The position numbers were made by a program, and so were the translations under genes. The notes beneath the pieces were generated by a model, which was not told where the DNA came from, ran no database searches, and was given only the letters and a program-made list of their open reading frames with translations. 64,000 bases of DNA, taken from positions 201,228 through 265,227 of the forward strand of contig JBJMHA010000041.1 in the NCBI GenBank assembly GCA_045807625.1. The letters are read 5' to 3'. Shown here piece after piece: positions 6,918 to 7,442 of this stretch. The stretch's first letter is position 1; the number at the start of each line of letters is the position of its first letter. This DNA comes from Thermoanaerobaculia bacterium. GTDB lineage: Bacteria > Acidobacteriota > Thermoanaerobaculia > Multivoradales > UBA5704.

Positions 6918-7095
6918 CTACCAGCACACACCGCCGCAAGTATGGGGGCATGAGTACGTGCAGAGCACGCCCGCGCAGCTGTTGCTCTCACAGTAGTAGG
7001 TATCTTCAGGAATGAGGCCGCCGTTCGTTTTTGCCAGATCGAGCTCGAGCACAGTTTCTCGCGAAAGCCGCAGCTTCTTCATACTCTTCTTCATA
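6918..7095 (-). CDS. putative Cys-rich RiPP precursor A (double-Gly leader)
   Basis: 58 aa MKKSMKKLRLSRETVLELDLAKTNGG|LIPEDTYYCESNSCAGVLCTYSCPHTCGGVCW. AGGAG lies 5 nt upstream of the ATG at 7093-7095. Six Cys in the core. LSRET motif shared with peptide 1. Local GC is lower than the surroundings. Confidence 0.55.
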
Positions 7096-7205
7096 CATTC
7101 TCCTCTTAGCAAAGCCGTCAATATTTACGGCTCGGTTCTCTTCCTTCAGTGCAGGCGGAGGTCAGAGGGAGAGATAGCTCTTTGTTTCTCTCCGGGACTC
7201 GACAC

Positions 7206-7442
7206 TTACTCGGCGCACACACAGGACGAGAAGTCTGTGTTCTGACCGCCGCATCCACCCGATGGATACTCTGTGCAACCACAGGCCGACCAATGGCTTG
7301 GCTCGCTGGTGGTGGGCTCACACCATACACAAGCGGAAATCTCGTTGGTGGCTCCCCCACGGATCGCGCTGAGAGAGAGAGGCTCCGAATCGTTTCCCGG
7401 CGAAGCACGAGTTTCTTTATTTTTCTTCTCCTTTCTTAGCAT
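7206..7442 (-). CDS. putative Cys-rich RiPP precursor B (double-Gly leader)
   Basis: 78 aa MLRKEKKNKETRASPGNDSEPLSLSAIRGG|ATNEISACVWCEPTTSEPSHWSACGCTEYPSGGCGGQNTDFSSCVCAE. Seven Cys plus Ser/Thr in the core. AT-rich 5' end. Weak RBS. Confidence 0.45.
   Translation of the reverse strand: MLRKEKKNKETRASPGNDSEPLSLSAIRGGATNEISACVWCEPTTSEPSHWSACGCTEYPSGGCGGQNTDFSSCVCAE

What the first reader, a model, noticed from the sequence alone, without database searches (positions are those of the whole stretch)
6918..7442. Two Cys-rich peptide genes with double-glycine leaders that share the LSRET leader motif of the ATP-grasp-associated precursor
Peptide A (58 aa, strong AGGAG RBS) and peptide B (78 aa) each end their N-terminal region in GG, followed by cores containing 6-7 Cys (CESNSCAGVLCTYSCPHTCGGVCW; ACVWCEPTTSEPSHWSACGCTEYPSGGCGGQNTDFSSC VCAE). 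Peptide A's leader KLRLSRETVLELD parallels peptide 1's PLPLSRETIRQLD. That suggests one leader-recognition system serves chemically different cores. The window contains no C39 peptidase/ABC exporter, LanM/LanKC or obvious SPASM radical-SAM enzyme. These peptides are therefore either disulfide-rich bacteriocin-like products or substrates of an unrecognised enzyme. Their codon usage is AT-richer than the flanking DNA.
Basis: seen in the sequence. Interest (0 to 1): 0.8.

Follow-up and report, generated by a model that had tools for sequence, protein, structure and literature searches.

The report
Orphan lanthipeptide-type precursor genes, one frameshifted
Two small cysteine-rich peptide genes belong to a large acidobacterial precursor family that sits next to class I lanthipeptide enzymes in three other loci, so they are probably ordinary lanthipeptide precursors encoded away from their enzymes, and one of the two is disrupted by a frameshift.

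Summary
Peptide A (6918-7094, minus strand) is a real, conserved gene. Peptide B's 78-aa ORF exists. However, its family leader (I/M)KKLVLRRETIRSLSLSA lies in another frame. It is cut off from the core by an ATG>ATA start change and a +2 shift in a (CT)n tract. Intact orthologues exist (P0004).

Both peptides belong to a family of at least 116 peptides, mainly from Thermoanaerobaculia (Acidobacteriota). The leader is MKKxxKKLRLSRETVRxL....L..V.GG and the Cys+Ser/Thr-rich cores are hypervariable. This leader is the LxLx(K/R)x5L...GG type described for Bacteroidetes class I lanthipeptides. It hits only NCBIfam NF038153, near or below cutoff.

In three independent loci, family members sit directly beside LanC or LanC-LanB (two of them with a methyltransferase, a GAF protein and a C39-peptidase ABC exporter). 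About 15 other loci, including this window, have no such enzyme within 10 kb and share no neighbour.

Best reading: orphan class I lanthipeptide precursors served in trans by LanBC and a LanT-type exporter elsewhere in the genome. That genome could not be inspected.

"Peptide 1" is probably not the ATP-grasp's own substrate: a separate 48-aa ORF (4160-4306) travels with that enzyme.

Verdict: new members of a known kind, of moderate interest.

The parts
6918..7094 (-). Peptide A gene (58 aa plus stop). Leader MKKSMKKLRLSRETVLELDLAKTNGG, predicted core LIPEDTYYCESNSCAGVLCTYSCPHTCGGVCW (6 Cys, 6 Ser/Thr).
   Evidence: Translation. Identical or 90-97% identical proteins occur in four other metagenome samples. 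Against L001 there are 6 synonymous and 2 non-synonymous codon changes. Family leader HMM 38.9 bits.
7100..7104 (-). Shine-Dalgarno AGGAG of peptide A, 5 nt upstream of the ATG at 7094.
   Evidence: Sequence. Conserved in L001, L002 and L003.
7206..7442 (-). Peptide B ORF as read by the first stage (78 aa). Its N-terminal 28 residues are not a family leader, and no SD precedes the ATG at 7442.
   Evidence: This frame gives no hit to the family leader HMM.
7367..7420 (-). Ancestral leader of peptide B in the other frame: ATA (7418-7420; ATG in L003 and L005), then KKLVLRRETIRSLSLSA.
   Evidence: HMM hit of 19.7 bits on segment 7121-7435(-). Intact orthologue P0004 begins MKKLVLRRETIRSLSLNGVRGG....
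7428..7432 (-). Shine-Dalgarno AGGAG serving the ancestral (ATA/ATG) start of peptide B, 7 nt upstream.
   Evidence: Aligned with L005/L006, where it precedes a true ATG.
7371..7381 (-). (CT)5C tract where the frame is lost. It is 11 nt here and in L002, 7 nt in L003 and 9 nt (CTCTCCCTC, in frame) in the intact L005/L006.
   Evidence: Alignments; translations.
7209..7358 (-). Peptide B GG site (7353-7358) and core ATNEISACVWCEPTTSEPSHWSACGCTEYPSGGCGGQNTDFSSCVCAE (7 Cys, 12 Ser/Thr).
   Evidence: Against L005 there are 14 synonymous and 5 non-synonymous codon changes, and 16 of 21 differences fall at third positions.
3793..3930 (+). Peptide 1 (45 aa from MKEKI; 49 aa from the ATG at 3781). It has the same leader family and the conserved core GG|CDTTSYTTD.
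   Evidence: About 70 homologues share the core CDTTS[YWF]T[TS][ED]. HMM 26.6 bits.
4160..4306 (+). 48-aa ORF MKKNDTHTGRILGRRLARELTRKELEKATGSVQCWTLTDPPDGPYRDH with an SD, 113 nt upstream of the ATP-grasp. It is the more likely cognate substrate of that enzyme.
   Evidence: It is conserved together with the ATP-grasp in L038/L039 and missing together with it in L001.
4419..5543 (+). ATP-grasp peptide maturase homologue (context only; not linked to peptides A or B).
   Evidence: TIGR04187 9.5e-62, MvdC/MvdD models 1e-50, all below the equivalog cutoffs.
3924..6756 (.). Segment present here but absent from the close relative L001. It carries the 48-aa ORF, the ATP-grasp, tandem repeats and the 196-aa ORF, and marks this locus as a variable island.
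   Evidence: blastn of L001 against the window.

Best explanation
Peptide A, and peptide B before it was disrupted, are precursor peptides (LanA) of class I lanthipeptides that are encoded away from their enzymes.

The leader has two modules:
- An N-terminal LxLx(K/R)x5L box (KLRLSRETVLEL). This is inferred to be the handle for the LanB dehydratase and LanC cyclase.
- A double-glycine end with hydrophobic residues at -12 and -7. This is inferred to be cut during export by a C39-peptidase ABC transporter (LanT/PCAT).

Inferred pathway: LanB would dehydrate the six Ser/Thr of the core. LanC would add the six Cys to form thioether rings. The exporter would then remove the leader after GG.

The enzymes are inferred to lie elsewhere in the genome. 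They would serve several scattered precursors with the same leader and unrelated cores, as ProcM serves the prochlorosins.

What is shown:
- The gene, its conservation and its membership of the leader family.
- The physical linkage of other family members to LanC/LanB/LanT genes.
- The frameshift in peptide B.

What is inferred:
- That this genome has such enzymes.
- That peptide A is actually dehydrated and cyclised.
For: 1. Leader family. A profile of five local leaders retrieved 116 peptides with MKKxxKKLRLSRETVRxL...GG leaders and unrelated cores, mostly from Thermoanaerobaculia. One (P0037) is already named 'class I lanthipeptide' by NCBI.
2. Only one NCBIfam family, NF038153 lant_leader_L1a, ever hits these leaders. 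Scores are 12.8-13.9 bits for pepA, 21.9 for the L001 paralogue, 21.3 for the LanBC-adjacent P0048 and 23.1 for P0037, against a cutoff of 22. Pfam PF28317 Lant_leader_dom is flagged on a family member in L004.
3. The motif equals the LxLxKx5L + GG + C39 leader type reported for Bacteroidetes class I LanAs (PMC7268733).
4. Linkage to enzymes. In L007/L020 (Thermoanaerobaculia Co_bin.310) and in L022, a family precursor is followed directly by LanC, LanB (PF04738+PF14028), a methyltransferase, a GAF protein and a C39-ABC exporter. L022's LanB is 67% identical to L007's. In L034, three tandem precursors, LanC and a fourth precursor lie together.
5. Core composition matches the LanBC-linked members. 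Ser/Thr is at least equal to Cys in every core (pepA 6/6, pepB 12/7, L007 8/7), and Cys counts are often odd.
6. Between pepA and its 53%-identical relative in L012, Ser/Thr and Cys positions are kept while Ser and Thr swap: DTYYC/DSDPC and SNSC/TQTC.
7. Purifying selection acts on pepA and on the pepB core.
8. Full-length LanB homologues are abundant in Thermoanaerobaculia and Holophagales (755 hits at E<=1e-20).
9. Orphan family loci share no other conserved neighbour.
Against: - No LanB, LanC or C39-ABC lies in the 64-kb window.
- I could not show that the source genome has them. An attempt to tie a LanB to the closest MAG (SMAG_U5251) failed.
- Peptide A scores well below the curated NF038153 cutoff. 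The -4 position of its GG site is Thr rather than a hydrophobic residue.
- Only 3 of about 20 informative family loci have the enzymes in cis.
- No chemical evidence exists for any member of this acidobacterial family.
Confidence: 0.6

Rival explanations
1. Unmodified or disulfide-only secreted peptides (class II bacteriocin-like or signalling peptides). A peptidase-containing ABC transporter would recognise only the double-glycine leader, and no lanthionine chemistry would be involved.
For: - GG is near-invariant in the family.
- Peptide A has an even number of Cys (6).
- Most family loci have no modifying enzyme within 10 kb.
Against: - The conserved N-terminal LxLxRx5L box is not needed for C39 cleavage and is the box described for class I LanAs.
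- Family members are physically linked to LanB/LanC.
- Many cores have odd Cys counts: pepB 7, L007 7, L012 5.
- Ser/Thr positions are co-conserved with Cys.
Confidence: 0.15
2. Substrates of a different or unrecognised enzyme. Candidates are the neighbouring ATP-grasp (ester or amide macrocycles), the LanM + GMC-oxidase thiazole system recently found in Thermoanaerobaculia, and a YcaO or radical-SAM enzyme encoded elsewhere.
For: - An ATP-grasp lies 1.4 kb away.
- Peptide B's core has a GGCGG motif. TheO/ThaO make thiazoles at Gly-Cys motifs in Cys-rich Thermoanaerobaculia precursors (PMC13083261).
- The same leader also carries the conserved CDTTSYTTE core, whose chemistry is unknown.
Against: - L001 keeps peptide A at 97% identity although the ATP-grasp segment is absent.
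- The ATP-grasp has its own upstream 48-aa ORF.
- ThaA and TheA have a mersacidin-type leader (MKKQQVIRAWKDEEY...), not this one.
- No GMC oxidase, YcaO or SPASM enzyme is in the window. The radical SAM at 42889-44307 is a 'variant_rSAM'.
- Orphan loci share no neighbour family.
Confidence: 0.15
3. Peptide A is a decaying, unexpressed remnant like peptide B, in a repeat-rich variable island.
For: - Peptide B is frameshifted in two different ways in different samples.
- P0005 in L004 looks frameshifted in its core.
- The island is full of repeats and varies between close relatives.
Against: - Peptide A has an intact ORF, SD and start in five samples.
- Six of the eight codon differences from L001 are synonymous third-position changes, and both amino-acid changes lie before the motif.
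Confidence: 0.07

Closest known systems
Bacteroidetes-type class I lanthipeptide precursors with the LxLxKx5L...GG leader (pinensin-related family I 17; NCBIfam NF038153 lant_leader_L1a; Pfam PF28317)
   Same: - The leader box has the same spacing (L8-x-L10-x-R12-x5-L18).
- It ends in Gly-Gly.
- In the linked clusters a C39-peptidase ABC exporter replaces LanP.
- The cores are Ser/Thr+Cys-rich.
- Full-length LanB and LanC are adjacent in L007, L022 and L034.
   Different: - The phylum is Acidobacteriota (Thermoanaerobaculia/Holophagales).
- Arg usually replaces Lys in the box, within a fixed LSRET string.
- Peptide A scores below the curated cutoff.
- Most copies, including these, are not next to the enzymes.
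Prochlorosins / cyanotins (Nif11-leader precursors served by one ProcM-type class II synthetase)
   Same: - Many precursors per genome have a conserved leader and unrelated cores.
- Many are encoded far from the synthetase.
- GG cleavage is carried out by a PCAT.
   Different: - The leader family is different.
- The enzyme is class II LanM rather than LanB+LanC.
- Here, trans action by one enzyme pair is inferred, not shown.
ThaA/TheA RiPPs of Thermoanaerobaculia (LanM + GMC oxidoreductase, thiazole at Gly-Cys; PMC13083261)
   Same: - The bacterial class is the same.
- The cores are Cys-rich with Gly-Cys motifs.
   Different: - The leader is mersacidin/lichenicidin type 2.
- The enzymes are adjacent to the precursor.
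- No such enzymes are in the window.
Graspetides (ATP-grasp-modified RiPPs; MvdC/MvdD, TIGR04187 systems)
   Same: - An ATP-grasp maturase homologue lies in the same island.
- Peptide 1 has a Thr/Ser/Asp-rich core.
   Different: - Peptides A and B lack a conserved Thr/Ser...Asp/Glu motif.
- They are retained where the ATP-grasp is absent.
- The ATP-grasp has a separate upstream 48-aa ORF.

Membership tests
Class I lanthipeptide precursor, LxLxKx5L/GG leader type | Leader box LxLx(K/R)x5L | tested here: met
   pepA has L8-R-L10-S-R12-ETVLE-L18. Reconstructed pepB has L-V-L-R-R-ETIRS-L. The motif definition comes from PMC7268733. L8, L10, E13 and T14 are invariant in 45 family members.
Class I lanthipeptide precursor, LxLxKx5L/GG leader type | Score at or above the curated cutoff of NF038153 (22 bits) | tested here: not met
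   pepA scores 12.8-13.9 bits and reconstructed pepB 11.5-15.9 bits. For calibration, the LanBC-adjacent P0048 also falls just short (21.3 bits), while P0037 passes (23.1 bits). A family-specific HMM gives pepA 38.9 bits.
Class I lanthipeptide precursor, LxLxKx5L/GG leader type | Gly-Gly leader end with PCAT-type hydrophobic positions | tested here: met
   GG is at least 90% conserved in the family. pepA has V-12, D-8 and L-7, but T at -4. Reconstructed pepB has I-12, L-7 and I-4 (sequence).
Class I lanthipeptide precursor, LxLxKx5L/GG leader type | Core with Cys and at least as many Ser/Thr | tested here: met
   Ser/Thr versus Cys is 6/6 in pepA and 12/7 in pepB, the same pattern as the LanBC-linked cores.
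Class I lanthipeptide precursor, LxLxKx5L/GG leader type | LanB and LanC (and LanT) encoded next to the precursor | tested here: not met
   None is in the 64-kb window. The feature is met for other family members in L007/L020, L022 and L034.
Class I lanthipeptide precursor, LxLxKx5L/GG leader type | LanB and LanC present somewhere in the same genome | not testable with these tools
   Only the window is available. LanB is common in the class, but no LanB could be assigned to the nearest MAG.
Class I lanthipeptide precursor, LxLxKx5L/GG leader type | Dehydrated Ser/Thr and (methyl)lanthionine rings in the product | not testable with these tools
   This needs mass spectrometry or NMR.
Graspetide precursor | Co-inheritance with an ATP-grasp maturase and a conserved Thr/Ser/Lys-Asp/Glu core motif | tested here: not met
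   pepA is kept in L001, where the ATP-grasp is absent. pepA homologues in L012 have no ATP-grasp nearby. The cores are hypervariable.
ThaA/TheA-type (LanM + GMC oxidase) precursor | Mersacidin/lichenicidin type 2 leader and adjacent LanM/GMC oxidoreductase | tested here: not met
   The ThaA leader MKKQQVIRAWKDEEYLQSL... is unrelated. No such enzymes are in the window.
Unmodified double-glycine (class II) bacteriocin | GG leader plus a dedicated PCAT and immunity gene in cis, with no modification enzymes linked to the family | tested here: not met
   No PCAT is in the window. The family is linked to LanB/LanC elsewhere.

The most novel reading that the evidence does not exclude
Thermoanaerobaculia may run a class I (LanB/LanC) counterpart of the prochlorosin system. 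One enzyme set and one C39 exporter would serve many precursor genes scattered through variable, repeat-rich islands.

These genes turn over quickly by cassette replacement and by slippage in short repeats. The (CT)n tract of peptide B has three lengths in three sample sets (9 nt in the intact L005/L006, 11 nt and 7 nt in the disrupted copies). It could even act as an on/off switch.

The same leader is also used by a second family with a strictly conserved core (GG|CDTTSYT[TS]E, up to five tandem copies). That family would be destined for a different, still unidentified modification.
Probability: 0.3. Interest if true: 0.6.

Novelty: new member of a known kind. Interest (0 to 1): 0.38.

Why it matters
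If the reading holds, genome-mining tools that look only near LanB/LanC miss most precursors of this acidobacterial family. About 15 of roughly 20 loci examined here are orphans. The true chemical diversity of class I lanthipeptides in soil Acidobacteriota would therefore be larger than cluster counts suggest.

The family also offers a natural set of very different cores on one leader. That is useful for testing LanBC substrate tolerance.

For annotation, the lesson is narrower: peptide A should be called a putative class I lanthipeptide precursor, and peptide B a disrupted copy.

Tried and rejected
- A single-sequence search with peptide A found only near-identical copies. A profile of local leaders was needed.
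- Pfam gave nothing for the peptides themselves.
A tighter alignment worked, with the pattern KKLRLSRET. That pattern biases the loci towards this exact leader variant.
- I looked for any gene family shared by the orphan loci using all-against-all blastp of ORFs. None was found. A Pfam scan around the three tandem precursors of L016 showed only RND efflux, Fic, AbiEii and the like.
- I tried to place a LanB in the same MAG as the closest relative of the window (SMAG_U5251, protein accession HEY2293779). I compared accession ranges of 20 LanB hits. None matched, and half carried no accession. This is uninformative rather than negative.
- I looked for Mb-sized contigs shared between orphan precursors and the top 120 LanB hits. 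None was shared, but only 120 of 755 hits are listed.
- Programmed ribosomal frameshifting was rejected as an explanation for peptide B. The window needs -1/+2 and L003 needs +1 at the same tract, and the start codon is also mutated.
- The radical SAM at 42889-44307 was rejected as a maturase. It is 35 kb away and of NF045502 'variant_rSAM' type with no SPASM hit.
- Rfam gave only sub-threshold chance hits on the inverted repeats at 9044-9320.
- The sigma-70 promoter scan found nothing and has little meaning for this phylum.

Full report
**What is there**

The window is high-GC (68%). It has a lower-GC, repeat-rich stretch between about 3.4 and 13 kb.

On the minus strand, 6918-7094 encodes peptide A: MKKSMKKLRLSRETVLELDLAKTNGG-LIPEDTYYCESNSCAGVLCTYSCPHTCGGVCW. 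AGGAG lies 5 nt before the ATG.

On the plus strand lie:
- peptide 1 (3781/3793-3930);
- a further 48-aa ORF (4160-4306);
- an ATP-grasp maturase homologue (4419-5543; TIGR04187 9.5e-62, below the equivalog cutoff).

The peptide genes are AT-richer than the rest: GC 55-56%, GC3 0.58-0.71, against about 0.9 in neighbouring housekeeping genes.

**Peptide A is a real, conserved gene**

- The identical protein is called on two short Logan contigs (L002, L003). Versions that are 97% and 90% identical occur in a JGI contig (L001) and another Logan contig.
- L001 is about 90% identical in DNA to the window across this locus.
- Peptide A differs from its L001 copy at eight codons. Six changes are synonymous third-position changes. 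The two replacements fall in residues 4-5, ahead of the conserved box.
- A 53%-identical relative in another Acidobacteriota MAG (L012) keeps the leader and the C-terminal CW. It also keeps the relative positions of Ser/Thr and Cys, while Ser and Thr swap: DTYYC/DSDPC and SNSC/TQTC.

**Peptide B is a disrupted copy**

A six-frame motif scan found KIKKLVLRRETIRSLSLSA at the peptide B locus, but in a different frame from the ORF.

Reading the DNA gives, in order:
- AGGAG at 7428-7432;
- 7 nt later, ATA (7418-7420), then AAG AAA CTC GTG CTT CGC CGG GAA ACG ATT...;
- a (CT)5C tract at 7371-7381;
- after that tract, the frame of the GG site and core is the other one.

Comparison with other samples:
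- L002 is identical to the window here, so this is not an assembly slip peculiar to the window.
- L003 has ATG at the start but a tract 4 nt shorter, so it is also out of frame.
- L005 and L006 have ATG and a 9-nt tract (CTCTCCCTC). They encode an intact 71-aa protein, P0004: MKKLVLRRETIRSLSLNGVRGG-ALTNEISACINCEPTTSDPSHWSACGCTGYPSGGCGGQNTDFSFCVCAE.

The window copy therefore carries two lesions: the start codon change and a +2 shift. The 78-aa ORF arises only because an upstream ATG without an SD happens to be in the core frame.

The core itself was under purifying selection during the divergence from L005. There are 14 synonymous and 5 non-synonymous codon changes, and all seven Cys are kept. 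The disruption is therefore recent, or the tract toggles. In L001, most of peptide B is deleted.

**The leader defines a large family**

A profile of the five local leaders retrieved 116 proteins.
- About 43 have hypervariable Cys+Ser/Thr-rich cores.
- About 70 have the conserved core CDTTS[YWF]T[TS][ED] of peptide 1.

Named sources are mostly Thermoanaerobaculia, with some Holophagales and one Kofleriaceae. One protein is already named 'class I lanthipeptide'.

The consensus is MKKxxKKLRLSRETVRxLxxxxLxxVxGG. L8, L10, E13 and T14 are invariant, and R12, L18 and GG are at least 90% conserved.

An HMM built from 54 leaders, none of them an orthologue of a window peptide, hits only three of the 1117 six-frame segments of the window. 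These are peptide A (38.9 bits), peptide 1 (26.6 bits) and the alternative frame of peptide B (19.7 bits). The next best segment scores 5 bits.

**What kind of leader it is**

The only NCBIfam model that ever matches is NF038153 lant_leader_L1a (class I lanthipeptide). Scores against the 22-bit cutoff are:
- peptide A, 12.8-13.9 bits;
- the L001 paralogue, 21.9 bits;
- P0048, 21.3 bits;
- P0037, 23.1 bits.

Walker et al. 2020 describe exactly this leader type. Class I LanAs from Bacteroidetes carry LxLxKx5L instead of FxLD. They often end in Gly-Gly and have a C39 protease in the cluster (PMC7268733). Peptide A fits the spacing, with Arg in place of Lys.

**Linkage to enzymes**

- In L007 (= L020, Thermoanaerobaculia Co_bin.310) the family member P0048 is followed at once by five genes. 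These are LanC (PF05147), LanB (PF04738+PF14028), a methyltransferase, a GAF protein and a Peptidase_C39 ABC transporter.
- L022 has the same five genes in another species, with LanB 67% identical.
- L034 has three tandem precursors, LanC and a fourth precursor.
- No LanB/LanC/LanT homologue lies within up to 10 kb on each side (less where the contig is shorter) in the window, L004, L009, L011, L012-L019, L021, L023, L026, L027 or L031.
- These orphan loci share no other gene family. A Pfam scan around the three tandem precursors of L016 found nothing relevant.
- Full-length LanB homologues are very common in this class: 755 hits at E<=1e-20, many labelled Thermoanaerobaculia.

**Most likely mechanism**

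Peptides of this family are class I lanthipeptide precursors.
- The N-terminal box is probably the LanB/LanC handle.
- The GG end is probably the LanT cleavage site.
- Ser/Thr in the core would be dehydrated and joined to Cys.

Composition fits this reading. Ser/Thr is at least equal to Cys in every core examined, and Cys counts are often odd, which argues against pure disulfide peptides.

Peptide A would be served in trans by enzymes encoded elsewhere, as prochlorosin precursors are. I could not inspect the rest of the genome. The nearest identifiable relative is the MAG SMAG_U5251 (GCA_036497345.1), whose ATP-grasp is 96.5% identical. That MAG also carries at least four other family members on two other contigs (L016 with three, L021 with one). 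I could not assign a LanB to it. This is the main gap, so I put my confidence at 0.6.

**Rival explanations**

- A disulfide-only, PCAT-exported peptide remains possible, because most loci lack enzymes and peptide A has six Cys. It does not explain the conserved LanA-type box or the LanBC linkage.
- The neighbouring ATP-grasp is an unlikely partner. L001 keeps peptide A but lacks the 2.8-kb segment 3924-6756, which carries the ATP-grasp. The ATP-grasp also has its own SD-preceded 48-aa ORF directly upstream. That ORF is conserved with the enzyme in L038/L039.
- The LanM + GMC-oxidase thiazole RiPPs recently shown in Thermoanaerobaculia (PMC13083261) have Cys-rich cores. They modify Gly-Cys motifs of the kind seen in peptide B (GGCGG). 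However, their precursors have a mersacidin-type leader, and their enzymes are adjacent to the precursor.
- No YcaO, SPASM or GMC enzyme is in the window.

**Peptide 1**

Peptide 1 shares the leader. Its family is not consistently next to an ATP-grasp:
- none in L001;
- none in L036/L037;
- none in L040, where five tandem paralogues all carry GCDTTSYTSE.

Its modification is unknown. The likely common partner is the lanthipeptide/PCAT machinery, not the ATP-grasp.

**Verdict**

- The peptides are new members of a known kind: class I lanthipeptide precursors with the LxLx(K/R)x5L-GG leader, found here in Acidobacteriota and encoded as orphans.
- The points of some interest are the scattered, fast-turning-over precursor repertoire, the repeat-mediated disruption of peptide B, and the conserved-core sister family.

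Noticed in passing
window 4160-4306 (+): An unannotated 48-aa ORF (MKKNDTHTGRILGRRLARELTRKELEKATGSVQCWTLTDPPDGPYRDH) with an AGGAG SD lies 113 nt upstream of the ATP-grasp. It is conserved with the enzyme in L038/L039 and lost with it in L001, so it is the likely true graspetide precursor. It has no NCBIfam hit.
   Followed up: partly
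window 7371-7381 (-); L003 39-50; L005 about 1800: The CT-repeat tract in peptide B has three lengths in three sample sets: 11, 7 and 9 nt. Only the 9-nt form is in frame. This is either recurrent slippage or a possible on/off switch.
   Followed up: partly
window 3973-12182: The motif GGTGGCACCTG occurs 8 times, always on the + strand, and only between 4000 and 12172 of the 64-kb window. It ends a repeat element of about 380 nt that is present three times (7717-8092, 11267-11528, 11533-11915). One copy sits at the left edge of the segment missing in L001. A related element follows the peptide-1 gene in L036. The nature of the element is unknown.
   Followed up: partly
window 9044-9320 and 5625-5753: There are 41-nt tandem and inverted repeats (four or more units) at 9044-9320, and three 43-nt tandem repeats just downstream of the ATP-grasp. 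Rfam gives only sub-threshold chance miRNA hits on the first set.
   Followed up: no
L040 921-2166; window 3793-3930: The peptide-1 family has a strictly conserved core, GG|CDTTSYT[TS]E, on the lanthipeptide-type leader. Up to five tandem copies occur, with no ATP-grasp, LanB or LanC within 8 kb. About 70 members were found and their modification is unknown.
   Followed up: partly
L001 2527-2730 (-); L005 2010-2201 (+); L004 10001-10213 and 11402-11572: Close relatives carry different family peptides at the same locus. L001 has an extra one on the opposite strand. L005 has a different core in place of peptide A. P0005 in L004 looks frameshifted within its core (GKLLLPGPDGLHNLLGSG where relatives have GSSCCPGPTGCTNC).
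   Followed up: partly
window 12501-13094 (-): A 197-aa ORF at 50% GC (GC3 0.61) sits in a 68% GC genome. It has one predicted hydrophobic stretch and no family hit, so it is probably foreign DNA.
   Followed up: no
window 9597-11075 (-): A secreted thiamine pyridinylase (thiaminase I, TIGR04541 7e-141) is fused to a C-terminal Cys-rich MVL mannan-binding domain.
   Followed up: no
L007 15129-17812: The lanthipeptide clusters of L007 and L022 include a PrmA/PRMT-like methyltransferase and a GAF-domain protein between LanB and the exporter. This suggests an extra tailoring or regulatory step.
   Followed up: no
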